In this document: in pieces, positions 6,384 to 41,008 of the stretch
Numbering within the stretch: position 1 is the first letter of the stretch
How the letters are laid out: every line of letters starts with the position of its first letter
DNA from: Pseudovirgaria hyperparasitica
Taxonomy: Eukaryota
Length of the DNA: 64,000 bases
Direction: 5' to 3' (one strand)
NCBI GenBank assembly: GCA_010093815.1
Contig: ML996577.1
The notes under the pieces: generated by a model
The model's database searches: none
What the model was told of the DNA's origin: nothing
The model's input: the letters and a program-made list of their open reading frames with translations, nothing else
Made by a program: the position numbers and the translations under genes

Positions 6384-7062
6384 GCTTGCGTCCAATGGAT
6401 CAGATCAGTGCGTGTTTTGTTGATTTGGTGCGGTATGAGAGGCAATGCAAAAGAGATTCTGGCGGTGTGCGGGACAGTTCATGAATTGAAGGTGAGGAAA
6501 TCGCGCGCAAGGGGGGTGATCCGTGGACGCGCCCCTCCAAACACACTAATGTTTTTCTGGCTTAGTGTTGGCGGGGTCAACACAGGTACTGTAGGTAATT
6601 AGGTCAAGGCATCACCCATGGATGCCCAGCCCTGGAGGTGCTCAGCTTGCTCATTTAGGTCTACCATCTACTCAATCACTTTCTCGAATACCTCAAGTCT
6701 CCCCTTAAACATCATTCATCTCTGCTGGAATGATCTGGGACGGGAGTGCTTATTGGTATCATGGCGACGAGGGCAGTCTTCTTAAAGCAAGACGAGGACT
6801 ACAAAAGGAGAGTGCGGGATTATGAGAACAGATTGCCGTCATCTGGAGATCACTGCACAGAGATGTGATGAGTTGTATCGTTTTTGCTATATCAACGACA
6901 GTCTTCGGCAAGCCCAACGCGCAGCTTAGTTTTCAGTCAATAAAATGTAAGTCGTGAGATTCGCTATGTGGGATAAGCTAATGGATCAAACCGCATAAAA
7001 GAATTACAGACGCCACTGACGGAGGAGTTGCATCGCAGATTGAGAGGGTGGAATGTGTTGCA

Positions 7063-9300
7063 CTACCAGTCCTTCTTGAGATCAAAGGACCACTCGAGCT
7101 TCAAATGAGTAACATTGTCGTCGTCGATGAACTTGGAGACAGCATTGTAATGACCACGTGCCATCATACCAGAAGGAGCAGTCTCGGCTTCGACTAGGCA
7201 TTTGTTAGAGGATTTGTAGGCACGGCAAGGAGTGTAATGACATACACTTCTTCTCATAGCTTGGCTTATCAGTCGTGTTGGGGCTGTACGATCCCTAGAG
7301 CAGCACATTAGCGAGAAGTCGATGAGCGATGAAAAGACCGAGTATACAATCATCTCTTGGGCCTTGTTACTGATGATACCACGCTTGACCACTTGAACGT
7401 ATTTCAAGCCTGACAGAATCTGATGCTGAACCTTGAACTGCGCCTTCATACGAAACTTTGCGCCTTCTTTGATGGTGAAGGGCTTCTCCTTGAGATGCTC
7501 AACTGCGCCCGGTGACTTCAGGTCGATGATGATGTCGTCGCGTCCTTCGACCTAGGACTGATTAGTCTTGAGTCATGTGCGCCTCGATCTTTGATGGCTT
7601 GCCTCCAGCCCAAGGGACTCGATTATGACCTTACGCGGATCATTGGGATCAGAGATGGTGTTACCCGCTCCTAGGCCGAGACTCTCCTTCCACTTCCTAA
7701 GAGATTCGTCGTTTTGGTCTAAGGGATCTGGTTAGTCGTCTCCATTTGTTGCGATAATAAGGAATCCTGTTCTGGTAGGGCTTTGGACCAAGCAATACAA
7801 GGTGCATGGGCGGGACGCTGCTGATGAATCTCCTGGCCGGTTTCTCGATATACCCTTCACGACGGTAACCTGCAAAGTCGGCCCAGTGGCTTTCACACAC
7901 AAGGAGGTGGTACACGCATCCATATCCCCACCACCTGCCACCCAAGTCGACCACGTCAAGAGCTTCAGGCATACAGCATTCTGGACAGTTACCAAGGATT
8001 ATCCTGATCGTTCCGTCGGCGGACTTCTCGAAGACATGATGCCCAAAGACGGGCGCATCGACTTCAGGTGCGGGTCGAAGAAATGCGACTGTCGGAACTG
8101 CCAAGATGACGGTTGCGGTGAAAATGATAGTTTTGGCATGCTCGACAGTTATCATAGCCTTCCCCTTTCGAAAAGCATCCCAGCCAGATCTGCAGGTGGG
8201 CTGCACGAGGTCCTTGATTAGCGGTGACATTCGGTGAGCAAGGAGTCGACGTGTCGGATACATCCAGGGTTTCATGCGATTCTCTATGTATTTCATGGGA
8301 ATGCTGGACCAGTCTTCAGTCCAAGCTATGTAATGACCAACAGAACAATGCTGATAGTCTGTATCTTTTGGCTTCGGGATAGAAGGCAATGCTATTGGAT
8401 GGTATGCAAACAGTTGTCTAAGTGTGCGAACATGATCCATTCCAATCGGATCTAAGTCTGTCGCAGATGCACTTTCAAGGTTTGGCTCGGGCGGAGATGT
8501 TTGGATCTCGTCGATCTGCTCCTCCCTGGAGCCCACGGGTGGAGACGAAAGGCTGGAGGGTTCGCCGGCGATGCGAGCGGTATGGGATAGAGTGTCATCG
8601 ATACCGAAGCTGCCTTGTTTGGAAGCATCCAAACTGTGTCCTCGAGTGTAGGCACTGTCCCTATGATGTGACGGACTAGGATAGTCTGCCATATGGAAGC
8701 GAGTGGGATGGATGTTTGTAGCAAGTATTGTATTATTGTGAAAAGAATATAGGTGCTCTCTGGTCTCAAGTCGGCTGAAGCGATATGATGGAGGTAGATG
8801 TGATCCAAATCGATGAAGTGAAGGATGTTCTCTAAGAATGGATCTCACGGGCGGAACGAAGCAGAGAGATGCGAACAGTGGCGGGCGCGAGATACGCAGT
8901 AGGCAAGGTAGTCGCGAGCCATGGCGAGTGATGTTGAGCGCGACTTGCTACCTCTTACTTTGTTGGATCTTTTGTTTTTGTTGTAAGGTAGGTATGGATC
9001 GCGTTATATGCAGGTGGGTTGCTGAGGCGTCCAAGTAGCAGATTCCCCAAAGATTGATCTTTAGCCGGTAACACTGGACGGACCTCAGGCGCGGGGCGAT
9101 GGCGTGGTGGAAATAGGACAAGGGTTGATTGTATCGCGGGAGTTGTAGTTTGGTAAGGGGAAAGAAGAGTGGAAGAAGTGGAAGTGGATTGGGAAGAGCT
9201 TACCTAGTTGTTTGTACTCGTCGATGGTCTTTGATTCGCCGACCTTGAAGCCGGCAGTCTGCTCGGGGACAAGCTCGTCGTCGTGATGAGCGGCGGACAT
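7063..9300 (-). CDS. RDI1: Rho GDP-dissociation inhibitor
   Basis: Exons 9300-9204, 7718-7603, 7551-7348, 7294-7246 and 7193-7063 give GFKVGESKTIDEYKQL|DQNDESLRKWKESLGL...GSYSPNT...APSGMMARGHY...EWSFDLKKDW. Intron 1 is 1485 nt; intron 2 is GC-AG. Confidence 0.93.
7697..8692 (-). CDS. Unknown 331-aa ORF nested in RDI1 intron 1 (separate gene or alternative first exon)
   Basis: Uninterrupted frame from ATG 8692 (MADYPSP...) to TAG 7697, preceded by a UTR-like CA/CT-rich leader. One hydrophobic stretch; no recognisable domain. Confidence 0.45.
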   Translation of the reverse strand: MADYPSPSHHRDSAYTRGHSLDASKQGSFGIDDTLSHTARIAGEPSSLSSPPVGSREEQIDEIQTSPPEPNLESASATDLDPIGMDHVRTLRQLFAYHPIALPSIPKPKDTDYQHCSVGHYIAWTEDWSSIPMKYIENRMKPWMYPTRRLLAHRMSPLIKDLVQPTCRSGWDAFRKGKAMITVEHAKTIIFTATVILAVPTVAFLRPAPEVDAPVFGHHVFEKSADGTIRIILGNCPECCMPEALDVVDLGGRWWGYGCVYHLLVCESHWADFAGYRREGYIEKPARRFISSVPPMHLVLLGPKPYQNRIPYYRNKWRRLTRSLRPKRRIS

Positions 9301-9704
9301 GTCGACAGCAGGACGTAGGGAAGAATTGGCAGGGTGGAGGAGTGGGAAGAGGTGGTGGAAAGTGGAAGAAGGGCAAGAATAGAATGAAGGAAGAAAATTG
9401 GAGGATGGAGGTTGAGGCGGCGTAGGAGCACGACACTGAGCAGCACAACGAGTGAGGTGGAGGATGGATTGGATGTTGTGGATGGCGGGGCACTGGCAGA
9501 GGTGGGATGGATCCATCCATGCATGACATGAGCAACGTTAATCACCTACTAATTATTGATGATGGTGCGTAACCCTATAGTGGGCACACCACACGGAGGT
9601 CTCACCGCCTCTACTCAAGGCTGGATGCATGAGAATGAGAGTCTGTTACTGTGCAATATGTGTTTCTTGAGTATGGTGATGTGATGTGCGTGGGAGGTGT
9701 GGAA

Positions 9705-9980
9705 GTGGCTGGTGGCTGGTGGCTGGTGGCTGGTGGCTGGGGCTAACAAATAGCAGCCAATACCTACTACGGCATAATGGCGGGCCTAGAGGGGGGAGAA
9801 TTCAGGGGAAGAAGGCGAAGTAGGGGCGTTTTGTTGTTTGGGCAGAGGGCAGAGGGCAGAGGGCGGAGGGCACTAATCAATCGCTGGTGGCCATAATTAC
9901 TGCCTCGGACTCTTGGAGGGAGGCTAATTTAGCTGGGGAGGCAGCTAATTAGTGGGGGAGGCAGCTAATTAGCTGGGGAG
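9705..9980 (+). repeat. Cluster of short tandem repeats: (GGTGGCT)x~5, (GGCAGAG)x~4 and a 20-bp unit x3
   Basis: Arrays at 9705-9744, 9841-9871 and 9921-9980 (GCAGCTAATTAGCTGGGGAG-like units). Confidence 0.85.
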
Positions 9981-10304
9981 GTGCCTGGGGAGGTGCCCAC
10001 GCAGCTGGTCGAGGTCGCTACTACAGTCAGTACATACCAGGTAATGAAGGCAGAGAGGTCAGGTACCATAGCTATTAACTGTTGTTAGCTGGCTATTAAT
10101 TAGTTAAACTATTAAGGAATACCTACACCTACCTATTAATGTCCCTACCCTCCATACCTCAATAGGCAAGGTACAGTACGTACTGGATGGATGCATCACT
10201 TGGCGCAGTCTGGCTGAGCTGCCCTCCAGACTTTGAGCTGTCCGTCCCCCCCAAATCGCCTAGCCTGAGCCTGAAGCCGCCCTCGCATCCGCACCCGCAC
10301 CCGC

Positions 10305-10370
10305 ACCAGTCTGTCTGTCTGTCTCTGTCTGCTTGTTTGTCTCTCCCTCTCTCTCTCTCTCTCTCTCTCC
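10305..10370 (+). repeat. (CTGT)n/(CT)n microsatellite upstream of the Bqt4-like gene
   Basis: Visible runs ctgtctgtctgt and ctctctctctctctctctctc. Confidence 0.85.
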
Positions 10371-10614
10371 AGCCCAACCTTCCATCCTTCCCTCATCTAC
10401 GCCTCTCCTCTGCCTCAAACTCTGTATTCATCATCACGAGCACACGCCGGTTCGCGATCGTCGCATCGCTTGCTTCCTCCAACCAGCCTATTATTTGCAT
10501 CAAGGACCCTCGCCTCTACCCGCTTTGTCCTTTGCGCGCCGGCGTCGCATTCTCCAACTCTAATCCGCTGCACCGCCTACCACGTCCATTATCACCACCA
10601 TCCATTGTTCAACA

Positions 10615-12012
10615 ATGCCTGCAACACGCGTGCTGCCAAAGGCTTTCAACCCGTTGGTAGATCAGAGTCATGCGCCCACACGTATGTCAATGTCCCTGTC
10701 GCGCCGCCTATTGCTCCATTGCGTTCGGCCTGCGTTTTCTTTTTTTGCGAAAACCGCGCTAACACCTCGTTCATAGTCGAACAACTCATCGAGAGGCGTC
10801 GTCTTGGCCGAACCAATCTCTCTGCCAAACCAGGTCAGGTCGGTGTCGCAAATGCTTCAAAACAAGAGAATCTCGGTCCTTTTGACTACGCCCATCTGCG
10901 TGTGCCGCTTCCCAAGGACCTGAAAGGCTCCGGTATCTTCTCGATAGGAAAGAGCAACAACCTCTGGCCTGAATCATACTTCTTGATGGTACGTTATTCC
11001 TATCGGCAATCCGCCTGTTTGATGCACAGGGACGCTTATACTATAGCAGCGACGCAGCAGTGATGGATACGTTAGTGCTACAGGCATGTTCAAAGCCGCT
11101 TTCCCATGGGCAAAGGTTGAGGAAGAGGAGGCAGAACGGGCATACCACAAGACACTAGGCTCTGCCGGCCACGAGGAGGTGGCAGGGAACGTATGGATCC
11201 ATCCTGAGGATGCCTTCGAGCTTTCCAAAGAGTACAACATGACAAACTGGGTCCTCGCACTCCTTGACCCTGAACCGATAGAAAAGGGTACCAAATCTCC
11301 TGAACGGGATGAGATTGCAACTCCCCCGCGCTTCATTCTCAAGGACGTCAAGCTTCCTCCCCCAGCTTCAAGCACTCGTGGCTCAACTCGCAAGCGGTCC
11401 ACGCGTTCCGCGTCTCCCTCAAAAATTGCCACTCCAGTACGCAAGATGGCCTCACCACGCAAGCCGCGCACATCCCGTCGGAAGAAGGCCGAAGACGACG
11501 CCGCCAGCGTAGCGAGCTCTGTTCTGCAAAGCGCCATCGAAAATGGCACTTCTGCCACCGACTCAGTCGACGGCGGCCCTGTCAATGGCGTCGCTGAATC
11601 CGTAAAAGTCAACATCGACGAAGTCGTGACCAAAGAAGGCGACAAGGAAATCACAAAGACCTCTGTCGTAATTGACATGCCCGCCGGCCACCCAGACCTG
11701 CCACTGCCCGAAAACACCGAAGACATGATGGCAGCTGCAAAAGCAATCGTTGAGAAAGCCACCGCAGAAGACGCTAAATCTGCTGCTACAAACGGCATCA
11801 AACCTACGCGGAAGCGCAAGGCCACGGAGGTCGAGGCCGACGACCAGCTCGCCGAAGCATCTGGCGCCGCAAAGCCCAGCGAGCCGTCCACACAGGGCGC
11901 TACCAAGAAGAGCAAGACACAGCCGACGAAACGCGAGACAGTGCGGACCAGAGCACTCATCGGAGCCGGGTTGACACTTGCCATCGGCGCCGCAATTCCA
12001 TATTTCCTGTAG
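10615..12012 (+). CDS. APSES/KilA-N domain protein with C-terminal membrane anchor (Bqt4-like)
   Basis: Exons 10615-10681, 10777-10988 and 11050-12012. Motifs [37 protein letters not shown] and GNVWIHPEDA; hydrophobic tail RALIGAGLTLAIGAAIPYFL. Confidence 0.87.
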
Positions 12013-12552
12013 TTTGCGCCGACGCGGACGACCAGCGCGATTTTTTTTTAAAGAGACACTTTCACTCCCCCTTGTTCCGCACCCCCTCCCTCGCACGAGC
12101 ACCACAGCCCCGACATCACTACTAACACACGCACTAATCACTTCATACTTACTACACCGCACCATAACCCCCATCGTTCCGCTAATGCACCAAGATACCA
12201 CTCCGTTCGTTGCATTCTCATCTCCCCTTTTTTTGCTCGTCCACTTCGTCTTATGCTTCATTTTTTTTCTCAATTCATGTATTCCCCAAGTACTTTGCGT
12301 CTTGATGATCCCCTTTTCCCTCTTCTTTTTTTTGTTGGGGGGTTGGCGTCTTTTGATTCTTCTTTTTGCTTTTTTTTTATTCACGCTCCGATGGGCCCCT
12401 TCATATCGTCTGACATTAGGCGGTCTATCTGCTTCCGGCAGACCTTGGGAAACTGTCGTTCGGATCATATATGTGCTTGGTTGGATGTCATGACCGCATT
12501 GGTTGGAGTAGGCTTTGGAGATGTGGTGGCTGGGTCAGGCCATGTGAGATGG

Positions 12553-21994: not shown

Positions 21995-24900
21995 TCTAGT
22001 AGCTAAAATCTAGTTTTTATCCTCCTAGGGAGGCTATCGCTTTAGCGATACCTTCTAAGGGGTAGTTATCTTACCCCTTATATAAGGGAACTCGTTAAAA
22101 ATATTTAACGCTTATAATAAACTATATAACTTACTAGATAATAATAAGAACGAACCTAGAGTCTAATACGAAAACCCTTCTCTAAAGCGATATATCCTAA
22201 TTTTAGAGATAGAAATTACGGTAATAAAGCTTAACGACTAAATTTAATAGTCCTAGTAGATAGTAATATATTATAAAATAAGCTAAAAGAGTCATATAAG
22301 AAAAATATATATTAACTCCCTCTATATCTATAATAGATATTCTAGCTACTTATTAATATAAATTAACGCTATAATTCTAACTCGGAAGATAATTATTACC
22401 CTAGGAAACGCCTTCCTTACCTAAGCTATATTAAGATATCTTCCTTATAGAACCCTAATTATAATAGCGACGTCCCTATAGAAGAAGCTAATACTCCCTA
22501 AAATATAGAACGCGCCCGTAATAAGCCGTTAAATACTATTAACGCGCTTACCGCGCTCCTTAATACTAACCCGGCTATAAGAAACCTTACTAGAGACGCT
22601 CGTACGTTAGTACTAATTAATATATATACTAATTAACTCGAGTTATAAATAAGGAATAACTATATTACTCGAGAAGAACTAGTAAGAGACTTTAATAACC
22701 TCCTTCTTAATAACCCTAACTAGGCGAGCCTAGCTATACTAGTAAGAAGAGGCCGTATTCTACTCCGAGTACCTAATATATACTTAGGAGAAACTAGAGA
22801 TAATACCTACGAGGAATAGTACTTATTAATCTAGAAATAGATTTATACTATAGAATTAATAGAGCGCTAGTAGGAAGCTATACCTAAGTTCGAGAAACTA
22901 TAAATCTATAGAATATATATATTAAAGTATATCTATACCCTTTAGCGTAGTCTTATAGAAGCCTATAGACGTAATAACCTAGATAGTCCTTAAATACTAG
23001 ATAGCTTTCTAGACGTTATACGTTAAACGTATATCTCTACTAATTACTCTAAATAGCGTAGAAAGGAATAGGAGAACCTTACTTAATATTATTTTAGATC
23101 TACCTCGAAGCTTATTAACGCTATTATTAAAAAGGTATAACTTCTATAATCTATACCTTCTAAATATAAGATATAGCGTAGAATTCTAGGCGCCCTTAAG
23201 TCTAAGGTTTAATATAAGATTAAAAAGTAGCTCTTTCCTCCTATAGAATTAGAAGAGTAGTATCTATAGGTAAAGAGGCTAGAGAAAGCCTTATATATCT
23301 ACTCTAGAAACGAATACTATAGGCGGGAGGCTACTTATTATATTAATACTATATATTACTAAGACGAAGAGAAGAAACTAGAAGAATTTAAACCTTCTAA
23401 GGACTTATATATACACGAAGATAAATTAGGTAACTACTCTAGAGATAAGGGTAAGCTCTACGTATTTATAAAGCGTTAATAGAGTAACTAAGGCCGCGGT
23501 AGAGGCTAGAACTAAGGCTAAGGCCGTGGTAAATACTAAGGAGGCTTATTAAGAGCTCTTAACGAAACCTAAGAATGCTTTAACTATAAGAAGTTAGAAT
23601 ATATCTTAAGATTCTACCCTAAAAATCCGACTCTAGATAAGCTAGTCTATATTACTATTAAGGATAATACGTTAAGCGTCTTTAACGAAGAGGCCCTAAA
23701 AGCTAGTCGCCCGTAGTAGATATAGAAGATACTATAAGCGACTATAAGAGCTTCTATACTAATAATACTAATAAAAATAAGATAAATATATAGGACTATA
23801 AATATATTAACGCGCTTTATAAATCGCTAGAGAGTACCTACTATTATTAAGAGGAGTTAACGGACGTTATTAACGATCGTCTCTATTAACTAAACTCTAT
23901 TAGTAGATAGTTACTAGAACTTAAGGCTTACGTAGGGAAAGTCCACCCCTAGAGAGTTTTAGTCCTTATTAACTATAGGGCTAATAGAATATATACGTTA
24001 ACGAAGGTTACTAGACGTCTAAAGCTAGTACCGTAATCTACCCCTATAATACGTGTTAAGCTTCCGTTAGGAGCTCTAATAATAAGTTAAGAAGTTATAA
24101 AAATCCCTCTTTATATAGAAAGCTTTACTTACGAAGTCTCCGCGAGAGTACTTAACCTTAAGGGCTATAATCTAATTCTAGGTTATAAATAGCTTTATAA
24201 ATAGAATCCCGATATATTATAGAGATTCTATTCCCTAGTAATTAGAAGGCTAGTAGCTCGAGGAAGGACTAAGGAGTATCTCCTTAAGAGGATTCCCGTG
24301 TTAATTAATATTAACTTATAAGGAGAATAAGTACTAAATATCCTTACCGCTAGCTAAGCACGGAAATAATATCTAAACGGCTATAAGTAAGGTATAATAT
24401 AGTTTATTAGAAAAGATAACCCTCCTATACTATAGGCACCCGATCTAATACTATAAACGGTTTTAATAGAGTACTAGGACATCTTTAAAGAGAAGCTATC
24501 TAAAGGACTACTACCTTCGAGATAATAGGACTATAAGATAGATATAGGAGACGGCTGACCCGTTAATAACGCCGTCTACTACCTCTCCCTAGAATAAATC
24601 GCTAAATAGTAGAAGTAGATATAGAAGCTTATCGAGCGAGGGCTTATCTAAGAATTAGAAAGTGCCTAGGGTAGCCTAGTACTTTTCGTACCTAAACCCG
24701 GAGGTAAATAGCGAATATATATTAATTATTAAGTACTTAATATACTTACATATAAGGATACGACCCCTCTTCCGTGTATAGATAAATATCTACGTGCCTT
24801 CGGCTAGTTAATAGTATTTAGTAAGATAGACTTAACCTTAGGGTTTTAGTAAGTACGAGTAGCCGACGAAGACGTCTCTAAGACTACCTTTAATATAATT

Positions 24901-25008
24901 TATAGTAAATATAAGTTTAAGATAATACCGTTTAGTCTATTAAACGCACCTACTACATTCTAAAAGATAATAAATCGAGTCCTTTAACCCCTACTATATA
25001 AATCCGTG

Positions 25009-28000
25009 ACCATTAAAAACTTCTTACACCCTAACGGACTAAACTAGTTAATTTAGGGCAAAACAGCGATTTACATACATTAAACAATAGAGTATACCAA
25101 GTATAACAACCTCCGACACACGTGCGTACGTATAGTATATAATACGCGACGATACTAACGTATAGAGATACTATATATATACACTTAAAGACTCTTCGAT
25201 AATACGAGCATAGACTATATCTAATAAACGCCGATACGCCGACCCCCTTTTATTAGTTAAGGGCTACCCTTAACTAATAACCATGGCGGCCTTAGGCATT
25301 ATAATACCCTAGTATACACCGGATATACCCCTACTAGTACGGTAGAAACGGCTATATAGCGATATTAATATGGATAGCTAGACACCTATCTAAAATATAG
25401 GAACTAACTAAGGGTGCGAAGCGCTATAGATAACCTAGACTAAGGGGACCCCGAGAGGGGAGACCCTCCTAGATAAAATTAAATACTAGGTAACACGTGT
25501 AGAGAGGGACGCCGAGGAGGGAAAGAAGACCCTCCTTCATATATTCTAGGAACTTATCTAGAATCTAAGAGGAATCATAGAGGAAGAGAGGAAGTCGCCA
25601 TGAGAGGAACCTAGTAGTAGGCTTAACTAAATAGAAGCTAGTCTACGGAGAATCTAGGAAGAGCTATCCTAAGGTAAGCGCCCTAACATGTAGGCTTAGA
25701 TTATAGTAATACCCGGAGCCACCGTACTAAGGACTACTAGGACTATAGATAGAGTATATAGTATACGTATTATAATCTAGAATAAGGACACGCTAGCGTA
25801 GGTCTAATAGGTATCTCTAAAGGAAATTATAAATAAGATTAATAAATAGAAAGGAATGTAGTCGAGCGTCGTGGCTACTAAAGTTACGCTAGGTAGGGTA
25901 GTACTTACTACTATAACGAATACTATATAGTAAAACATCTCGCGAGATCTAAACGTAATAGATAGTATCTTCCCCGGCGCGTCTATTAGAGTAGCTATAT
26001 ACCCGATTATAGTACACGTAGTACCCGTGCGGGGATAGGCTATCGGAGCAGAGGATATTACGCGTATAGAATAATCCAACACGCGAAAATACCTAGGGAT
26101 TAAGATCGTGAAAGCGTAGTAGAAGAACCTATAGGCGATTAAGATAACGGCGAAAAAACACTCTACTATAATTATAGAGCTCCGAGACCCCGCCCTCGTA
26201 TAATATATTATATAGAAGGGATTCCTAGTAGAAGGAGAGCTCCTTATGGCCGAGCCATAGAATAGGGTATAGGTAATAATATAGTGCTTTAACTATTAAG
26301 GGTATAGATATACTATATAAAGATACTTATAGAAGACTAAGTGCGGATAGTACCGTGGGGACCACGCTACCTAGGAGTACCCTTATAAACCGCGAGGAGA
26401 CGGGCTAAGAAATAGGGATATAGTATAGTATTTAAACTACGACGGGAAACACCCGTTATAGTCGTTAACGTATATAAAATATAAATAGGTTATAGAATAT
26501 ATTCGCACGATAAAAGCGAGAGGCGCGAGATAGTTATAGAATATAATACCTACTACGGGCCCTTCCTTTATAATACCCCTAACCTCCCCTCCGGAAGATA
26601 GTTAGGTAGGGTAGTAGATTATTCTAAAGATAATAGGACGACTAAAAGGTATAGTTAAAGCCGCTACCGCGCGAGGATAGTCGCGCCTCCGAGGAATAAG
26701 TATATAGATATATATACTCTCTAGTATCTAATAAGGGACTAGAATATACTCCGAATTATATAGATAAATATATAATATAAAAGAGAGAACTAGGCGACGC
26801 TCCTCGAAGAGACCGGGGCTATAATACTCGCTATCTAGAAACTCTATAAATACTACTAGACGAGTAAACTAACCATACACCCCGGATACTATACTATACA
26901 CCCTCTAGGACTAGAAAGACGAGTCCTCTTCTATATTTATAGGTTAATACTACTCTTATTATAGTCGTATACCGAGCGCGATAACCTTAGGATAATACTA
27001 CACCTATAAATAGATATAGGCCCCCTATATATATATAACATATATAACTAATAACGTGTACTTATACTAGACGAGATGCTCGAGGGTACTACGGAACTAG
27101 GGTAATATATCCTTCTAGGAGACTTTAACCTCCACTACTAATAGTAGGGAGGCCTAGCCGTGGTTAGAGAAGAACTTAGAGTAAGGGAACTACACACCCG
27201 CTGCCACGACTTTCTATACCTACTTACATCTATAGAATAAGTTATATAGAAAAAATATAAATAGGACGAAGACGGGTCCACGCTTAACCTTACCTTCGCC
27301 ACGGAGTATATTAGTTACTAGATCTAATACTACCGCCTAGGCTAGGTATAGACGGATTCCGACTATAAATATATAGAAACCATAATAAACGTATATACCC
27401 CGAATAAATAACGGGGATAATAGATATAGAAGGACACCGACTAGGAAAAGTACCTAAAGGACCTAGAATCGGCGATCCTAGATCCCTCTATAGTCGATAT
27501 ATCTAATAACCTAGCTATAGACTAGGCCGTATAGATACTCCTATAAATATACTAGAATACGAGAAATAAACACGTACTATACTAAATATACCGGCCCCCG
27601 GAAGCAAAGGGGATTCCTCGAGTACGGGAAAGTAGATAAGACGCCCGAAGACTATATAGACGCGTATACTATACGAGAACACCCGAGTCGTAGGAAGAAT
27701 AGAAGGAAGCGATATAATAACGCGATAAAGTTCTCTATAACGAAAGGCGTAAATAGTAGCGTATAATTACTAGTTAATAGATACGACACGTAATAGGGCT
27801 ATAGCGTATAGCGAAATGGGCTAAGGGCGTAGACACTCTAACACCCCCGCTACTTATACCTCCCCTAATATATTAGGGGAGAACATACTCTACGAGCCTT
27901 AAGAAAACTAAGGCTCTATAGAAGGCCATGTTCCCTCTCCCGGAACTAGTAGACCTATTAGACGTTTATAACGCCGAATACCTATATACGGTAGATATCC

Positions 28001-30295
28001 CTAAAGAAGTTACGGAGAAGGACATACTTAATATTATTAAGATACTCCTAAATGATAAAGTACCCGGACCAGATGGAATTCTAAATCGATACCTAAAAAG
28101 AACTATAAAAGCGACCCTACCGCTTATTACTTATATATTCTAAGTATACGTTACGTAGGGGTACCACCCCTAGTACTTCCGAGTCGCCTATACTATTATA
28201 CTCCCGAAACTAGGAAAGAGCCCTAACTCCCTAAAGGGATAGAGACTAATCGCCCTTCTCTCCTACCTAGGTAAGATACTAGAGGCTATGATAGCGAAGA
28301 AGATAAGTACCGCGGTATAGGAATATAATCTCCTCCCTCCGAACTAGAAGGTAAAGATAGATAGCTCTCTAATAATAGCTATCTAATATATTATCGAAGT
28401 CGTCTAGGCCGTATAGAAGTAGGGACGGGTAGTATTACTCCTCTCTCTCGATATAGCCGGAGCGTTTAATAAGGTAAACTATATAAGACTTATTTATAAC
28501 CTCTAGATAAGACGAATACTAGAATGGATTATACGCTTTATATAGTTATTCCTTATAGAAAGAATAACTTAGATATATATCTCTAGGTACTAGAGCGAAT
28601 ATAAAGAGACGGTATACGGCATCCTATAAGGGAGCACCATCTCTCTAATTCTATTCCTCTTCTTTATAGTAGACCTTCTTTAAGGAATAAAGTATATAGA
28701 GGTAGTCGGATACGCCGATAATATATACCTCCTAGCTATTAATAATAATACTAACCGAATGTATAGACAACTAGAATAGGACTATGAGAGATACCTCTAG
28801 TAGATAAAACGCTACGGAGTAAAGTTCGCCCCGGAGAAATACTAGCTTATATACTTTATTAATCGTTAAGGGAAATAGGTAACTAGGGAAGGCGAACGAC
28901 GCCCCCGAATCGACGCATTTAACGAACTACTAGTATAAAGTATACGCGCGCTCGGAGTTATACTAGATAGTAAGCTTAAATAGGGACCATAAGTAGTATA
29001 CGCCGTCTCTAGGGCCCTTTAGATAGAAGCCGCTATACGACGGATTATAGCCTCTATATAGGGAACCGCCCGGGATAAGGCACGCCAGCTATATATATCT
29101 ATAGTACGACCCGCCTTCATGTACGGACACGAGTACTAGTATACGGCCCTTATATAGACTAGGCGAATAAAGCTCGAATCTATATAGAACCGTATACTCC
29201 GTCTTATATTAGGCGTATATAAAGCTACTAACACGGTGCTACTACGACGCGAGATAGACGTTATAAGTATATATAACTTCTACTAGATATAGAGGGTGGT
29301 ATACTTTACTAAATAATAAGTATAGGAACGTATAGGAAACGTAGAATATACTTTCGCCGCGCTACATACACGAATTAGTATATATTACCGCGCACTCCTA
29401 TATATAGGCCAGAATCGAATACGGTATAGGTGCTTAATAGAAGCCGACTCTAGCTAAGTAGTATAAGAAGTCCGAGATAACCCGGACGCTCTCCTAGACC
29501 GGTAGAGCCTTTAAGAACTCGTGAAAAACATACGGTCGTGGACTTAAGATAAGTAGAAAGAGATACTCCGTGCCTACTAGGCCTCCTAGTAGGATAGGTA
29601 CCTAGAGTAGATTTAAGGGCCATAGAAGGAACCGAGTAAATAGATATATAAAGGGCTAACGAAAGCCTAAGTATCTATACTTATCTAAGCCCGAACGGGC
29701 GCTATGGGACTCCTATACTATATCTATAAGAGAGGCGTTCCTAATACCTCTCTATGGTATAAGGCGTACGGCCGGAGAGGTATAATACGCTACTATCTAG
29801 CTATATACCCTAACCTCTATATATAACGGTAATAGCTTATCCACGTCACGAAGACTTTAGATATTGTATAATAGCTTAATAAGTACCCTAAGGACGTCTC
29901 CCGATAGATACTTATATATCTACTACTTCTCTAGTACTAGTGGACCTAGAAATATATACTAGAAGAGACCCGGTATACGCTGGCCGCAACCCGATATATA
30001 CCGATAGAACCCCGGGAGAACCCCGATTATTAGTTAAGGGCTACCCTTAACTAATAACCTCCGCACCTATACGTACTACCTAAGGGCGAAATAACGGTAA
30101 TATAGACTATAGGCTAATAGGCGTACCCTATAGCTATATACTTAAGACGAAATAGAGGTTTAACGAGATATAGTTATAGATATAAGGAAGTTTTTCCCTA
30201 TGGGGTTTCTTCTTATATAGTAGCTTAGACTAGAGGAGGCATAGGCCTATAGAGTACTACTCTACCTAGTTATATAATATTATTATTATTATTAT
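25009..30295 (+). mobile_element. Non-LTR retrotransposon (LINE, Tad-like), RIP-mutated, inserted in the Gypsy RT
   Basis: 14-bp TSD TATATAAATCCGTG (24995-25008 and 30296-30309) and a 3' (TAT)n tail. ORF1 CCHC knuckles (~26282, QCFNCQGYGH after reversion). ORF2 endonuclease (~26770) and RT motifs VPGPDGILN (28058), LDIAGAF, GIPQGS and GYAD, plus a C-terminal CCHC (~29755-29810). Confidence 0.93.
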
Positions 30296-33200
30296 TATAT
30301 AAATCCGTGGTTATATACCTTAATAATATTATTATCTTTTCCGAAGATATAGAAGAACACGCTAGAGTACTATTAAAAGTACTTACCCTACTCCGTAAAT
30401 ACCGCTTACTTACTAATCTAGAGAAATATAGTTTTAGCTAGACCGAAGTTAACTTCTATAGATACCACGTCTTATAAGGATAACTTCGCCCGATAAAGGA
30501 TAAGATTAAGGTAATTCGCGAATAGCTAGAGCCTATAAACGTTAGCGAAGTCTAATAGTTCCTTAGTCTAGCGAATTATTATTAGAGATATATCTAGGGA
30601 TTCGTAAGTATTACCGTACCTCTAATAGACCTCCTTAAGGAAGTAGACCCTCTTATCTATAAATAGAAATATAGACCTATTCGATAGACGCTATTAATAG
30701 CGTTTACCTTTAAGACCCTAAAGAATACCCTATATTCCGAACCGGTTCTAGCTTAATCTAATAAGACTAAGCCCTTCTATATTAAAACGGATATAAGTAA
30801 CTATATAATTGGTATAGTAATCTACTAGAAGGATTCTAGTAAGTAGTATTAGCTAATCGCGTTTAACGGACGAAAGCTTAATGGCGCTAAGCTTAACTAT
30901 CCGGTTTACGAAAAAGAACTCCTTACTATTAAATACACTCTATATACTTAGAGATACCTACTAGAAATGAAGAAGACGATAATTCTAACTAATTACTATA
31001 GTCTATAGTTCCTTAAGTCTATAAAGGAATAAGGAGGCTATATAGATAGATAGATTAATAAGTTCGGAAGCTTCGATCTCGATATAAAATATCGCCTAGA
31101 ATCTAAGGCGGTAGTACCTAACGCCATTAGTAGAAGGCTAGACTTCTAAGGCGAGATCTCTATAATACTATTAAGTAAAGTTAATAAATACGTTCTTATA
31201 GTCTAAATTATTAAGTTTCTAAAAGGAGCTAACCCGATAGAGTATATACTAAAAGTCTCTCCCGAAATTCTATCTTAACTATACCTTAACGCCGAGAGTA
31301 AACTTCGATATAAGCTATAGGATTTTAATAATAGTTAAGAAGATTTAGCGGAAAATTTAGCGTCTTATATCCCGGAATAATACCGTAAGTCGCTAGTAGA
31401 AACTATATATTAATAATTCGGTTACTTTATATGGCCCGGACTACTAGGAGCCCTAGAAAAATAAGGCTAGTAGTTTAAAATAAAGAAAGACGTAGAGGTA
31501 GTCGCTTATAATTACTATTAATACTAATTAGCGTAACGAGTACTACTAAATCTATAACACGAGAGATAGTTTTATAGAGTTATACGCCGAGCATCCTTTA
31601 AAGAATAGAGTATCGACTTTATAGGCGTACTTCCTACTATATATAATAGTAATAGTTAGATAATAATAGTAATTAACTATATAACGGGATGGCCTATTAT
31701 ATAGATAGTCCCTAAGGCGACCGTAGAGTCTATTACGAGGTTCATTTATGAATAAATCTTTATAGATTTTAGACCCCCCGCCGCACTAACCTTAGATAAT
31801 AGTTAATAGTTTCTATTAAGAGTAGTTAACGCACTACTACGCATCCTTAAGACGGAATATAAACTTACTACGCCTTATTACCCTCATATAAACGGAAAGG
31901 TTAAATACCTTAATAGAACCTTAGGAGATATCCTTACCTATATATATATAGGCGAACTAGTAACTAACTAGAATATATACTTACTAGCCGCTATTTTTAC
32001 TATAAGGATCCGACGATATAGAAGTATAGAAGTTAGTCTATATTATCTAGTATATAGATAGTACCCTAACTTACTAGGGAATATTCCTAGAGAAAAGGCT
32101 AAGTTAATATCCTTTAACGAACTTATTAAGCGAGTTAAGAAAGTATAATACGCTAGGACGCTAGCGCTAAATAAACTACTTATAGAAGCCGCTTACCGAG
32201 ACCTTATAGATCCGACTTAGCTTAAACCTAAAGACTAGACGCGACTATCTATTAGTTAAATTATTTTACTAAAGAATAAATAGAAAACGAAGTTTAAAAC
32301 GAACTACTTAGGTCCCTATAAGGTTCATATATAACACCCCTTAGATATATACGCGCTAGAAACACCTAATAGACGTATCCTACGACACCTTATATATAGT
32401 AATAGGCTAATTATAGTAAGAGATATTAATAAGCTAGATAACTTCTAGACGAGATAGAAGATTAACTTATAAATATCTAAGGAAATTAGAAATTAAGTAG
32501 TACCTTACTTACTAGATATTAAGAAGGTTTTAGAGAAAGAGAAACCTACCCTATATTAGATAACTCTATCCTCCCTTCCTAAGAAGGAGTAGAACCGGCT
32601 ATAGTAGCTATAAAGTTAACGAGAGTTAATATATAAGGGCGTACGTTTATTCTTAGTAGGGGAGAGCTCGATAGACGTAGATATTACGCGTTAAATTAGA
32701 CTTACTAATATAAGAAATCGACGTAAACGGAGAGCTACTATAACTACGTTAATTACACTAGTACTAATCATTATTAATAAACTAAGAAATATACTAGAAG
32801 AATAACACGAGAATAGCGGAGCGATATAACCGCCGATAATAAATATTAAAGAGAGCTATAATACTCTAAGGGTAGAGGAAGCCTAAATAATAACTAAGAA
32901 ACTAATAGATAACCTATTAAACGAGATTAACACGGTAGAGAAAGCCACGATAGAAGCGAGATAGAAAGAATTACCTAAAGAAATAAGCTTAGGAGACGAG
33001 TTTAATAATACACGAATAGACTTAGATAAGAATATCTAACTAGAATATAAGAATCCTATAAGTATAGATATAGACTCGGATATAGAAGAAGTATTAAAGG
33101 AGGTTAACGAAGCGAATAAATAACCCCTAACCGACTTAGACGTCCCTATATAGAATCTTATAGAAAGCGAACCTTATACGCGAAAGAGAAAGCGATTCTA

Positions 33201-33329
33201 TATAGATAAACGTAGTAGAGAAACCTAAGCGGCTATAGCTAGCGTGTTAAGATAAGTTAATAGATTAGAGGGAGAGAGATACTCTCTACGGAAAAAGATA
33301 TTACCTTTAAAGCTATTATAGAAAAGCTT

Positions 33330-35670
33330 AGAATATAACTAACTTTAGTCTTTCCCTAATTATCTCCTTTATATATAGTACTACTAACCCCCTATTTACT
33401 TATTTAGAATATATATAGCCGTTAAAGAAGATTAACGAGCCTTAGAAATTACTAGAAGGTTAAAGAAAGAAGACGTGGACTTATAATAATATTATATAAG
33501 TCTAAAATTACTATTTAAGAACCGTAAGACTAAATAGAGATAAAAGAAAGCCGTTAACGCCTTTTAACGCTTAATAAGATAGGGTATCATTATAAAATAG
33601 AAGCCGTCTACTTAGTCCTAGACCTTACGAGTAGAATTTAGTAGATTCTTCGTAAATTATACTAATACCTTCTCGCCCTCCTCGGGCATGCTATTATTAA
33701 TTAAGAACTTATATAGTAGCCCTTAAGGTATATAGCTAATCTCGCTAAACGCGTTTATCGGATGACTAAACTAATCTTTAACGGCTTCGTTAAGCGGAAG
33801 TCCTTTATCTTTAAGGTTCTATATAGAATAAATAGAGATGATACTTAGGTTAAGAGATATAGTATTATTAAAGCTAGGAACGAGGACCTCTAGACCGCCG
33901 TAATACATCTATTCTATTATAGCTATAACCTTTTAATTAGCTAGAGATTATATAAGATATAAATCTAACTCACGAGCGAAGGACTAGCCTTAGAGTTTAA
34001 TCTAGTCTTCTTAAGACCTAATAACTTCTTTTAATAAAGTTTAGTAGCCGAATATTTTCTAGTAGCCTTAGTTATCTCTATAAATAAAGACTACTCGGTA
34101 TATTAGTACTTTTTAATAATATTACGCTTACTACGGTATACTTTAGGAACGTGTTAAATCTATTAAAAGTCTTTAACGATATAAAGGAATAACTTATAAC
34201 GCGATATACTATAGAATTTCCTATTCCCTTAGTAGAAATAGTTTAAATAGGTACCTTTAAATAGTAGGAACCCGTTAGAAAAAAGCTATATATACTCCCT
34301 AAAGATGCCTTTACTAGTAGAATAAGAACTATAGGCGCTATCGCTAAAGTACTAGTATACGCCACGAGCTATTATACCTAGAATAGCTAGAATAGTATAG
34401 GGATATAATCTATCTAGACGTTTCGAAGGATCCTAAAAGATCCCTTCTTCTATTATAATATTCTAAGGATAATAGTAGTTACTAAACTTATTTATTATAT
34501 AGAACGGAAGTAGATTCTTTAGAATTAAGGCGTGCTAACCGCTAGTATACGCCTTAATAAGGCTATTAATAAATTTCTTATAGAGCGCTCCGTTAATAGA
34601 AGGGTCCGAGAATAGCTACCCTAGAATAAGTTAGCTAACCGTTAAAGATAATTAATAAGATAAGAACTTACTCTAGTAAGCTAACTACTATATAAACTTA
34701 ATAGACTTCCCTAAAAAGAAGTAGTAATTAGATTAAACTCGGAGGTCTATATAACCTACCACTTCGATCTCGGTATTACTATAGCTATTAAGTTTATTTA
34801 CCGTAGGTTATGCTATCGTACTAACCTTATAAGAAGCTATAGACCCCTTTTACTTTATAGAAGTCTTCTTAATAACCTTATTAGAACTTTTAAGGTCTAT
34901 AATAGCTAGCTTAGAAGTTATAGAGCGAGTTTTAGGGCTATTAAATATCTTTAATAGAGTCCTTACGGTACTATAGATCTTTACTAGAGTCCTAGATATT
35001 CTAGGACGAGAGCCTAGATAAAAATTAGGAACTAGAATCTTAATATAAGACTTAGCGACTTACCTTTCTTAGTTACCTTAGAAGTAACTATATTACTAAG
35101 CTTATTAACTTTAATTAACGTATTACTATTAAGGTCTAATAACCTAGAGCTTTCTCTATCTTTATTTTTAGAATAGAAAATATTATTAGAGTCTTCTAAT
35201 AGATTTATAAACTAACTAGCTTTTATAGAGGCTTCGAAGAGCTTATTAAGGGTAATTAATATAGACTCCGGATCTATAACTTTACCTAGAAGATCTATAT
35301 AGATTAGCGGGATTCTTATAGAAGGGTATATTAAACGAATTATCTTCTACCTTAGGAAGAGGCTTATTAATAGCTATTACTAATCCTTAAGAGGCTAGAG
35401 CCTTAACTTTAGTCTTAGAGACCTTAGGTTTAAGGCTCTAACCGCCTTCTTCGATTAACTAAGCTAAAGCTTTATCTTCTAGGTCTAGTTCTTAAAAGAA
35501 TAGCGAACCCTAAGGCCCGTTTAGATATAGATAGCTATAGACTATCTTTAAGTAACTCTTATAAACTATATAGTTAATCTATACTTAAGAAATAAGGTAA
35601 CTTAACCTACTATCTAGAGTACCTTTATTTACTACTAATACTTTATTAAGTAATAACTAATTAGGATTTC
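33330..35670 (-). pseudogene. Putative antisense, intron-containing extra gene inside the Gypsy 3' region (RIP-destroyed)
   Basis: Minus-strand introns 35063-35014 (GTAAGT..CCTAAT..TAG) and 34671-34621 (GTAAGT..GCTAAC..TAG). Flanking frames read as protein with only TAA/TAG stops. Boundaries are approximate. Confidence 0.55.
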
Positions 35671-36110
35671 TATACGGAGGACCTAAGAAAGTATAATAAA
35701 GATCCTTATTTATAACTATATCTACTATAGAAAGTTTAAGTTAGAAGGGAAAAAGGTAAAGTTAAAGTTTATATATATAAAATTATAGTATTAATTAGAG
35801 TGATTTCTAAGTTCGTAGGAGTTTTAGCTATATTATTAGATATTATTAAAAGGATTTAGCGCTAGAAAAACTAAGGAAAAGATTAAATTAGTTAAGAAAT
35901 ATAAGGTTAAAGGATAGTAGAATATAGAAATAGTAAAGGTAACTATTTAGTACTAAAATAAGCTTAGACCACCGCCCTTACACGACGTGTTACTAATATG
36001 GCCTAGCGCTAAAGAGATTTTATATACCTACCTCCCTATATTATATATTCTAACTCTATTAATTATCTTTAACGGTCTTATAGGAGCTTATATAATTAGA
36101 AGAGGGAAGA

Positions 36111-40473: not shown

Positions 40474-41008
40474 TCTGCAGCCACTGTCACAAGCCCATGG
40501 ATCAAGAAGTCCCCAGGACCGCCAGTAGAAGCGAGAGTGAACAATAAAGATCGTGCAACAGGATCCGCAGTGCTTGAACGTATGTCCGATCAGGATTTAC
40601 CCGATCAGTGCGATCCGTCCAAGTATAACGGATGTCAAGCAGGGAAAAGGAGGAAGCAATGGATGTCCTGGAAAGACGGTGAGGATTGTAATCTTCGCGA
40701 TGAACCCCGACGACGAGGGGACGACAAAGCACGAAGTCTGGGGCAATGTCTGGGGTTCACAACAGCAGGGATGCTGAGCCGGCAAACAGAATCCGAGGAG
40801 AGAGCCAGGTTGGATGTAAACGCAGTCCTGTGTAGGGGACTCAGTGGTTGCAGTAAGCGAGCGAGAAGTGGTTGGTCAGGAGAAACTCGTGATAGACGTT
40901 CTTGGAGGTATGATGTAGGCTGTTTGGCCCGCTGCTGCATCTTGGCCGTGCATATGTTGACTTGCCCAATGCGCCGCTTCCGGAAAGGGAGTCGCGTGTT
41001 TTGTACAG

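What the first reader, a model, noticed from the sequence alone, without database searches (positions are those of the whole stretch)
7697..8692. Long ORF inside the 1.5-kb first intron of Rho-GDI: nested gene or alternative N-terminal exon
Seen: RDI1 intron 1 (9203-7719) is 1485 nt, while other introns here are 45-190 nt. It contains a same-strand 331-codon ORF with a TATA-like CATATAA (~9005) and a UTR-like leader. The ORF ends inside RDI1 exon 2 in a different frame. A phase-1 donor G|GTAACT at 7992 matches the phase of the exon-2 acceptor at 7719. Splicing there would fuse 233 new residues, including hydrophobic TIIFTATVILAVPTVAFL, onto DQNDESLRKWK.... Inference: an internal promoter could yield either a membrane-tethered RhoGDI isoform lacking part of the normal regulatory arm, or an independent protein.
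Basis: partly seen in the sequence, partly recalled or inferred. Interest (0 to 1): 0.72.

Follow-up and report, generated by a model that had tools for sequence, protein, structure and literature searches.

The report
Orphan ORF inside RhoGDI's first intron
A fungal RhoGDI gene carries an unusually long first intron that is almost entirely filled by an open reading frame with no known relatives, and other fungi of the same class carry different, unrelated reading frames in that intron, so the intron seems to be a repeated home for new coding sequence.

Summary
RDI1 intron 1 is 1485 nt (9203-7719). The public RhoGDI protein of Pseudovirgaria hyperparasitica (P0027), whose sequence matches the window's RDI1 exons, joins exon 1 to exon 2 across it. 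The intron holds a same-strand 331-codon ORF (416 codons stop to stop).

- **Not chance:** P is about 1e-6 to 2e-7.
- **No relatives:** no Pfam family, 0 hits in 1.84 billion proteins, and absent from 80 related RDI1 loci.
- **Weak coding signal:** codon usage is only weakly gene-like.
- **Weak splice sites:** two phase-1 donors (7992 GTAACT, 7974 GTATGC) would fuse it in frame to RhoGDI, but both score poorly, and the frame stays open 92-98 codons past them.

New here: 9 of 79 related loci also carry an open frame of at least 150 codons in this intron.
- Aureobasidium has a conserved 424-442 aa ORF with its own stop (dN/dS 0.11).
- One locus (L034) has a 245-codon frame running in frame into exon 2.
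- None resembles the window's ORF.

No RNA data could be obtained, so a stand-alone nested ORF (favoured, 0.42), a fused RhoGDI isoform, and a silent relic all remain open.

The parts
9204..9300 (-). RDI1 (RhoGDI) exon 1: 32 codons plus 1 nt, ending in phase 1
   Evidence: Read. Its translation MSAAHH...EYKQL equals the N-terminus of the public protein P0027. Exon 1 was found upstream of exon 2 in 70 of 80 related loci.
7719..9203 (-). RDI1 intron 1, 1485 nt: donor GTAAGC at 9203, branch point CTAAC at 7735-7731, acceptor AG at 7720-7719
   Evidence: The junction is confirmed by P0027. The donor scores 10.3, the top of 59 GT sites in the intron. The orthologous intron has a median of 108 nt.
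7697..8692 (-). 331-codon ORF (P0001) with its stop codon. It overlaps RDI1 exon 2 by 22 nt in a different frame.
   Evidence: It has no Pfam family. It has no homolog. The codon score is weakly positive.
8693..8947 (-). 85 further open codons upstream of the ATG in the same frame. There is no in-frame ATG and the coding score is negative.
   Evidence: One search gives 416 codons stop to stop. One search scores this stretch at -0.112, and the sliding scores agree. P(85 codons open) is 0.04-0.06.
9004..9010 (-). TATA-like CATATAA, 312 nt upstream of the ORF's ATG
   Evidence: Read. It is a motif only; no function was tested.
8845..8922 (-). The only upstream ATG between the exon-1 donor and the ORF start: a 25-codon uORF plus its stop
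   Evidence: One ATG was seen in 511 nt, against 4.3-4.8 expected from the local composition (P 0.04-0.07).
7987..7992 (-). It would join 233 residues to D-QNDESL.
   Evidence: The PWM score is 5.5, near the 10th percentile (5.7) of true donors. The hexamer occurs in 0 of 56 unique donors.
7969..7974 (-). Second candidate phase-1 donor T|GTATGC. It would join 239 residues to Y-QNDESL.
   Evidence: Read. The PWM score is 3.2, at the minimum of true donors (3.1). The hexamer occurs in 1 of 56 unique donors.
8078..8134 (-). Hydrophobic stretch KTIIFTATVILAVPTVAFL (residues 187-205)
   Evidence: The Kyte-Doolittle 19-residue mean is 1.92. It is reached by 2.87% of 20000 shuffles.
7063..7718 (-). 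RDI1 exons 2-5: 7718-7603, 7551-7348, 7294-7246 and 7193-7063, separated by introns of 51 (GC-AG), 53 and 52 nt
   Evidence: Pfam Rho_GDI PF02115 matches at E 1.8e-35. Exon 3 is 100% identical to P0027, and the rest of P0027 matches my reading.

Best explanation
The intron is long because a lineage-specific coding sequence sits inside it. The ORF's open frame takes up 1251 of the 1485 nt. The most likely reading is a stand-alone, fast-evolving orphan ORF nested on the RDI1 strand.

It would be read from a transcript that starts inside intron 1, or from an RDI1 transcript that retains the intron. Translation would start at ATG 8692 and stop 22 nt inside exon 2, giving a 331-aa protein. That protein has a Ser/Pro-rich acidic N-terminus, one hydrophobic helix and a Cys/His/Trp-rich tail. 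RhoGDI itself is made by splicing the whole ORF out (9204 joined to 7718).

Shown: the intron, the ORF, its non-random length, the absence of relatives, and unrelated ORFs in the same intron of other Dothideomycetes, one of them under strong purifying selection.

Inferred: that the window's ORF is transcribed and translated, and that its product is separate from RhoGDI.
For: - Open-frame length: P is 1.5e-6 to 1.9e-7. The ORF frame has 2 stops, against 17 and 15 in the other frames.
- The intron is about 14 times the median length of its orthologs, 108 nt in 60 loci, and the ORF accounts for the excess.
- The in-frame codon score is the best of the six frames: 0.08 bits per codon against -0.11 to -0.30. 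Normalised for stops it is 0.007 against -0.04 to -0.14. The score turns positive at the ATG.
- The frame stays open 92-98 codons beyond both candidate donors (P 0.025-0.049).
- Precedent: Aureobasidium and close relatives (7 of 80 loci) carry a same-strand 424-442 aa ORF in this intron. It has its own stop about 94 nt before exon 2. Identity between clades is 70% and dN/dS is 0.11 (0.06 in the core). L023 carries a further ORF of at least 188 codons with its own stop.
- There are no transposon ends, repeats or RNA families in or around the intron.
- The public gene model splices the ORF out, so RhoGDI does not need it.
Against: - No relative was found anywhere. There were 0 hits in 1.84e9 representatives and 0 of 991 candidates passed in the search of 5.8e9 proteins. 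Metagenome and viral contigs gave none. None of the 80 RDI1 loci had a hit (best E 7.0). Constraint therefore cannot be measured. Few Acrospermales genomes seem to be public (recalled, not tested), which weakens this as negative evidence.
- With the stop effect removed, the codon score is 0.007. That is below all 11 Pfam-supported coding stretches (0.077-0.197) and inside the range of non-coding open frames.
- The last 98 codons score -0.108.
- The protein-atlas recognition value is 1940, below the 2300 that 91 in 100 proteins of known families reach. The AF2 model has mean pLDDT 34.
- The public protein set searched contains no model of this ORF.
- The stop lies inside exon 2, so the ORF is not wholly intronic.
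- ATG depletion of the leader is only marginal (P 0.04-0.07).
Confidence: 0.42

Rival explanations
1. Alternative first exon. A promoter inside intron 1 gives an mRNA that is translated from ATG 8692 and spliced from a phase-1 donor (7992 or 7974) to the normal exon-2 acceptor. The product is a RhoGDI whose first 32 residues are replaced by 233-239 new ones that include the hydrophobic stretch.
For: - Both donors are in phase 1, like the exon-1 donor.
- The in-frame coding score is positive from the ATG to about 8000 (0.055 over 233 codons) and negative after that (-0.108).
- In L034 a 245-codon frame runs without a stop straight into exon 2 in the RhoGDI frame. The median such run in 79 loci is 27 codons and the 90th percentile is 82.
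- Public gene models of Trypethelium (228 aa), Bogoriella (627 aa), Elsinoe batatas (315 aa), Neofusicoccum (about 100 aa) and Dothideomycetes sp. NU459 (107 aa) carry unrelated N-terminal parts joined exactly before QNDESL.
Against: - The donors are weak. They score 5.5 and 3.2, against 10.3 for the real donor and a median of 8.2 for 56 unique true donors. GTAACT occurs in 0 of 56 and GTATGC in 1 of 56.
- One GT in three is phase 1 by chance.
- The frame stays open 92-98 codons past the donors (P 0.025-0.049), which a fusion would not need.
- In the window only 5 codons are open upstream of exon 2 in the RhoGDI frame.
- The named gene models are predictions that I could not check against DNA or RNA. 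In Aureobasidium such fusions rely on non-consensus donors, and the one consensus donor there is out of frame.
- The fusion would delete the exon-1 part of the regulatory arm, and exon 1 was found in 70 of 80 loci.
Confidence: 0.2
2. Silent relic or accident. The insert is a stretch of formerly coding DNA, or a fortuitous open frame in stop-poor DNA. It is removed with the intron and makes no protein. The intron is simply long.
For: - It has no relatives at all.
- Its stop-normalised codon score is indistinguishable from that of non-coding open frames.
- An antisense frame of 161 codons scores the same, 0.012.
- All three sense frames of the intron have fewer stops than the window-wide rate predicts: 17, 2 and 15 against about 26 expected (my arithmetic from the 0.0525 rate).
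- The open frame extends 85 codons above the ATG with a negative score.
- The protein has low language-model recognition and low fold confidence.
Against: - The open frame is far longer than chance allows, even at the intron's own low stop rate.
- A dead coding fragment would collect stops. The ORF frame has 2 in 495 codons, and both lie outside the ORF.
- The region is not AT-rich or degraded like the block at 22-36 kb in the same window.
- No source gene or transposon signature was found.
- The same intron holds a clearly selected ORF in Aureobasidium.
Confidence: 0.3

Closest known systems
The ORF in RDI1 intron 1 of Aureobasidium spp. It is uncharacterised. NCBI models file it inside 'E set domain-containing protein' of 557-644 aa carrying PF02115.
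   Same: It lies in the same host gene, the same intron (between ...YxQL and DQNDESL) and on the same strand. It fills most of a 1.57-1.59 kb intron, has no Pfam family, and has a disordered N-terminus.
   Different: - There is no detectable sequence similarity: BLASTP best E 2.6, hhalign probability 0.11% with E 0.52, and HMM scores no better than shuffles.
- The Aureobasidium ORF is conserved (dN/dS 0.11) and ends about 94 nt before exon 2. Its stop lies inside an invariant donor-like CG|GTGAGC site.
- The window's ORF has no known relative and runs into exon 2.
- Aureobasidium is a Dothideales genus in a different subclass (recalled). A passage of PMC7082219 places P. hyperparasitica within Pleosporomycetidae.
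In-frame N-terminal extensions of RhoGDI encoded in intron 1: locus L034, and the gene models P0059, P0057, P0031, P0075, P0079, P0035 and P0036.
   Same: Each is a long, lineage-specific, low-complexity coding stretch directly upstream of exon 2, on the same strand, and unrelated between lineages.
   Different: In L034 the frame is continuous with exon 2 and needs no splice. In the window the ORF meets exon 2 out of frame and would need a weak internal donor to fuse. Apart from L034 these are gene predictions whose DNA I could not see.
Nested (intron-hosted) protein-coding genes of animals, for example in Drosophila and mammals.
   Same: One gene lies within an intron of another. The abstracts of PMC3814207 and PMC11694760 were seen in the listing.
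   Different: Such pairs are described as non-overlapping in coding sequence (abstract of PMC3814207). Here the ORF's last 22 nt overlap the host's exon 2, both genes are on the same strand, and the host is a compact fungal gene whose other introns are about 50 nt. That nested genes are rare in fungi is my recollection. Searches found no fungal RDI1 case.

Membership tests
Rho_GDI (PF02115), the host gene | Match to the Pfam model, and identity to an annotated RhoGDI | tested here: met
   E 1.8e-35 on the open frame 7066-7551, which holds exons 3-5. Exon 3 is 100% identical to P0027, and all exons match its sequence.
Nested intronic protein-coding gene | The coding sequence lies wholly inside an intron of the host | tested here: not met
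   The start and 974 of the 996 nt are intronic, but the last 22 nt including the stop lie in RDI1 exon 2.
Nested intronic protein-coding gene | Its own transcript (promoter, start site, polyadenylation) and its own product | not testable with these tools
   Only a TATA-like motif and a leader poor in ATGs were seen.
Nested intronic protein-coding gene | A coding sequence maintained by selection | tested here: inconclusive
   The open frame is non-random, but the codon score is borderline and there is no relative for a dN/dS estimate.
Alternative first exon of RhoGDI (N-terminal isoform) | A donor in the phase of the exon-2 acceptor | tested here: met
   The sites at 7992 and 7974 are both phase 1. 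Both are weak, at 5.5 and 3.2 against 10.3 for the real donor.
Alternative first exon of RhoGDI (N-terminal isoform) | A splice junction seen in RNA | not testable with these tools
Aureobasidium RDI1-intron ORF family (alignment A1) | Sequence homology to the family profile | tested here: not met
   hhalign gave probability 0.11% and E 0.52. The core HMM scored -1.9, and 1510 of the 2525 scored decoys (of 5000) did as well or better. The repeat HMM gave no score for the real protein.
Aureobasidium RDI1-intron ORF family (alignment A1) | The same position and strand in the orthologous intron | tested here: met
   The conserved divergent upstream neighbour shows the loci are orthologous.
Transposable element or other mobile insert | Terminal repeats or target duplications, a transposase or RT domain, or further copies | tested here: not met
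   No flanking inverted or direct repeats beyond chance matches of 12-29 nt. No Pfam family. No second copy in the 64-kb window. The whole genome was not available.
Intron-hosted non-coding RNA (for example a snoRNA) | Match to an Rfam model | tested here: not met
   0 matches at E up to 1 in 7000-9800 on both strands.

The most novel reading that the evidence does not exclude
RDI1 intron 1 carries an internal transcription start that is widespread in Dothideomycetes, and the leader of that transcript is a place where new coding sequence repeatedly arises or is captured.

This would explain why at least four unrelated long ORFs sit in the same intron: the window's, the Aureobasidium type, L023 and L034. 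Two or more further ORFs are implied by gene models of Trypetheliales and Elsinoe.

Some of these ORFs became independent proteins (Aureobasidium, under strong selection). Others became N-terminal extensions of RhoGDI (L034). The window's ORF would be a young member of this series.

A variant of this reading is a single ancient nested gene that evolves too fast for homology to survive between orders.
Probability: 0.25. Interest if true: 0.75.

Novelty: new variant of a known kind. Interest (0 to 1): 0.55.

Why it matters
Fungal genes are compact, and a 1.5-kb intron filled by an ORF is unusual. If the ORF is expressed, one locus makes two unrelated proteins, or a RhoGDI with a swapped regulatory arm. 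That would bear on how Rho GTPase cycling is controlled in this mycoparasite.

The wider point is comparative. The same intron of the same housekeeping gene holds different long ORFs in several Dothideomycete lineages, and the Aureobasidium one is clearly under selection. Annotation pipelines treat that ORF inconsistently: some fuse it to RhoGDI, and P0045 leaves it out.

This gives a concrete, testable case of recurrent gain of coding sequence at one intron. Aureobasidium, which is easy to grow, would be a suitable system to test it. It also flags public RhoGDI gene models in this class that are probably wrong.

Tried and rejected
- **RNA evidence.** No RNA holder was listed for 7600-9350. 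Two runs of one study hold the DNA, and their kind is unknown.
- **Whole genome.** None is held for this window.
- **Homology of P0001.**
  - Pfam: 0 families.
  - Search of 5.8e9 proteins at near length: 0 of 991 candidates passed.
  - Full HMMER scan of 1.84e9 representatives: 0 hits.
  - ESM Atlas: best score 0.82, recognition 1940.
  - PDB sequences: 0 hits.
  - Metagenome contigs: 0 of 73 pattern matches confirmed.
  - Viral contigs: 0 of 6 confirmed.
  - The window itself: no paralog.
  - The 80 RDI1 loci: none by protein or by DNA.
- **Structure.** The single-sequence AF2 model of P0001 has pLDDT 34 and was not used for fold search.
- **Link to the Aureobasidium ORF.** I noticed a V.xG.WW...VY....E..W motif shared with it. 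hhalign and two HMM tests against 5000 shuffles give it no support, so I dropped it.
- **Fold of the Aureobasidium ORF.** The AF2 model has pLDDT 48 and a core of two helix plus three-strand units. The best structural matches are cystatin-like at Z 5.2, which is below a meaningful level. This is inconclusive.
- **Cassette-exon reading (exon 1 + ORF + exon 2).** The only in-phase AG sites upstream of the ATG (8945/8944 and 8759/8758) lack pyrimidine tracts, by my reading, and that stretch scores as non-coding.
- **Automated short-intron finder for a genome-specific donor model.** Its output was noise: 15 sites, mostly implausible. I built the donor matrix from RDI1 introns of relatives instead. 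Its exon-side columns are biased because they come from only three intron positions.
- **ATG depletion of the 511-nt leader.** It looked strong against the window-wide rate (1 seen, 10.1 expected). It shrank to P 0.04-0.07 once the local G-poor composition was used.
- **Other checks.** Transposon ends and Rfam gave nothing. The N-terminal parts of the long gene models are not found in the 80 loci.
- **Earlier scan notes.** Nothing relevant.
- **Literature.** There was no paper for Aureobasidium plus 'Rho GDP dissociation inhibitor'. The listings for nested genes in fungi held no RDI1 case.
Full report
**What is there**

On the minus strand the window carries a five-exon RhoGDI gene.

| Feature | Coordinates | Note |
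|---|---|---|
| Exon 1 | 9300-9204 | ends in phase 1 |
| Intron 1 | 9203-7719 | 1485 nt; donor GTAAGC, branch point CTAAC at 7735-7731, acceptor AG at 7720-7719 |
| Exon 2 | 7718-7603 | |
| Exon 3 | 7551-7348 | |
| Exon 4 | 7294-7246 | |
| Exon 5 | 7193-7063 | |
| Introns 2-4 | | 51, 53 and 52 nt |

The open frame that holds exons 3-5 matches Pfam Rho_GDI at E 1.8e-35. Exon 3 is 100% identical to a 189-aa protein named for Pseudovirgaria hyperparasitica (P0027). That protein reads ...EYKQL|DQNDESL..., so the public model uses exactly this long intron. NCBI taxonomy places the species in Acrospermales, Dothideomycetes. Passages of PMC7082219 describe it as a mycoparasite within Pleosporomycetidae.

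Inside the intron, on the same strand, lies the 331-codon ORF at 7697-8692 (P0001). It is 416 codons from stop to stop. Its stop lies 22 nt inside exon 2, in a different frame.

**Is it more than chance?**

Yes.
- The ORF frame of the intron has 2 stops, against 17 and 15 in the other two sense frames.
- At the stop rate of those frames, or of the GC-normal part of the window, a 409-codon run has P of 1.5e-6 or 1.9e-7.
- The run exceeds the 99.9th percentile of 3000 Markov simulations trained on the intron itself, although one simulation reached 434.
- I fetched 80 fungal RDI1 loci from metagenomes with exon 3 as the query. Exon 1 and exon 2 were both found in 70 of them. Four of those are cDNA-like with no intron, 60 have an intron of 40-300 nt (median 108), and 6 are longer.

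So the window's intron is about 14 times the usual length, and the ORF accounts for the excess.

**Does it look like a gene?**

Only weakly.
- A codon model trained on Pfam-supported coding stretches of the window gives 0.08 bits per codon in frame. That is the best of the six frames, but known genes average 0.187 with SD 0.042.
- With the stop-codon effect removed, the score is 0.007. Coding stretches score 0.077-0.197, and non-coding open frames mostly score below zero. An antisense frame of 161 codons scores 0.012.
- Along the ORF the signal turns positive at the ATG. It is 0.055 over the first 233 codons and -0.108 over the last 98.
- The 511 nt between the exon-1 donor and the ATG hold one ATG (a 25-codon uORF at 8922). 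The local composition predicts 4.3-4.8, giving P of 0.04-0.07.
- The hydrophobic stretch at residues 187-205 has a Kyte-Doolittle mean of 1.92, reached by 2.9% of shuffles.

**Relatives**

None was found. The individual searches are listed under Tried and rejected. The AF2 model is unusable at pLDDT 34. There are no transposon-like ends and no Rfam match. My recollection, untested here, is that few Acrospermales genomes are public, so the blank is weaker than it looks.

**The unexpected part: the same intron elsewhere**

Five of the six long introns (L003, L005, L006, L008, L009; 1566-1591 nt) hold a same-strand ORF of 426-429 aa. Two further loci cut by contig ends (L004, L007) hold the same ORF, so it is present in 7 of 80 loci.

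- The two clades are 70% identical in protein.
- dN/dS is 0.11 overall and 0.06 in the core, with pS 0.67 near saturation.
- A database search with this ORF found 23 proteins. All 11 that carry an organism name are from Aureobasidium species, and all 11 also carry PF02115. That is, gene callers fused the ORF to RhoGDI.
- The fusions are built in mutually inconsistent ways. Some run ORF to exon 2, and others run exon 1 to ORF to exon 2.
- In the DNA the ORF ends with its own stop about 94 nt before exon 2. The stop sits inside an invariant CG|GTGAGCGGC site. Splicing there would be out of the RhoGDI frame and would add only RPKR and a stop (and my reading).

This looks like a real, selected protein that is independent of RhoGDI. 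It has no Pfam family. Its model has a core of two helix plus three-strand units, and the best structural matches are cystatin-like at Z 5.2, which is inconclusive.

Two more loci whose exon 1 lies beyond the contig edge also carry long frames.
- L023 has an ORF of at least 188 codons that ends about 145 nt before exon 2.
- L034 has a 245-codon frame that runs without a stop into exon 2 in the RhoGDI frame.

In 79 loci the median in-frame run upstream of exon 2 is 27 codons, and the 90th percentile is 82. In total, 9 of 79 loci have a same-strand open frame of at least 150 codons in this interval.

Public RhoGDI models of Trypethelium, Bogoriella, Elsinoe batatas, Neofusicoccum and Dothideomycetes sp. 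NU459 also have long N-terminal parts joined exactly before QNDESL. Only the two Trypetheliales models resemble each other, at E 8e-6.

None of these ORFs resembles P0001. The loci are orthologous, because the divergent upstream neighbour is conserved beside RDI1.

**Fusion or separate product in the window?**

I built a donor matrix from 138 RDI1 intron donors of the relatives, 56 of them unique.
- The two sites score 5.5 and 3.2.
- The real intron-1 donor scores 10.3, and the median true donor scores 8.2.
- The hexamers occur in 0 and 1 of the 56 unique donors.

The frame stays open 92-98 codons past these donors (P 0.025-0.049). A fusion would not require that. The drop in coding score after about 8000 points the other way. 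I favour a separate product, with modest confidence.

**Verdict**

My confidences are:
- stand-alone orphan ORF nested in the intron, 0.42;
- in-frame alternative first exon, 0.20;
- silent relic or accident, 0.30.

No expression data could be obtained. What raises the interest is the recurrence of long, mutually unrelated ORFs in this one intron across Dothideomycetes. Searches found nothing in print on this.

Noticed in passing
window 7552-7602 (-): RDI1 intron 2 appears to be a GC-AG intron (GGAG|GCAAGC ... CCTAG|G). The public model P0027 instead uses a GT nine codons upstream and so lacks VIIESLGLE. Those residues lie within the exon-2 peptide that aligns over its full or nearly full length in the 79 of 80 related loci where exon 2 was located. 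The public protein (189 aa) is probably 9 residues short of the true 198.
   Followed up: partly
window about 22000-36000: A 14-kb AT-rich block has GC of 0.30-0.40, against about 0.50 elsewhere. It holds only one open frame of at least 150 codons (25804-26292), which scores -0.363. It looks like degraded repeat DNA.
   Followed up: no
L003 4445-5731; L006 2271-3548 (also L004, L005, L007, L008, L009): Aureobasidium-type loci carry a conserved 426-429 aa ORF in RDI1 intron 1, with dN/dS of 0.11. Its stop codon lies inside an invariant GGTGAGCGGC donor-like site. NCBI gene models fuse it to RhoGDI in several mutually inconsistent ways.
   Followed up: partly
L034 115-873: A 253-codon open frame (ATG at 217) runs through the branch point and acceptor of intron 1 straight into RhoGDI exon 2, in frame. 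That would give a RhoGDI with an N-terminal extension of about 211 aa.
   Followed up: partly
L023 2-565: A same-strand ORF of at least 188 codons, acidic and Ser/Pro/Gly-rich and cut by the contig start, ends about 145 nt before RDI1 exon 2. It is unrelated to the other intron ORFs.
   Followed up: no
window 10166-12534: The divergent upstream neighbour of RDI1 has several overlapping long open frames on both strands. Only 11047-12009(+) scores as coding (0.236). It has no Pfam family but is conserved beside RDI1 in many of the related loci.
   Followed up: no
window 40300-40530 (-): Residues 222-300 of the Aureobasidium intron ORF give a weak tblastn match (26% identity, E 0.088) in the open frame just upstream of the GATA zinc-finger exons. 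It is probably chance.
   Followed up: no
P0035 and P0036 (Neofusicoccum parvum gene models): The N-terminal part joined to RhoGDI exon 2 is made of tandem repeats of a 12-residue unit (…HNLREVHHIRKI…). This suggests coding sequence created by repeat expansion inside the intron.
   Followed up: no
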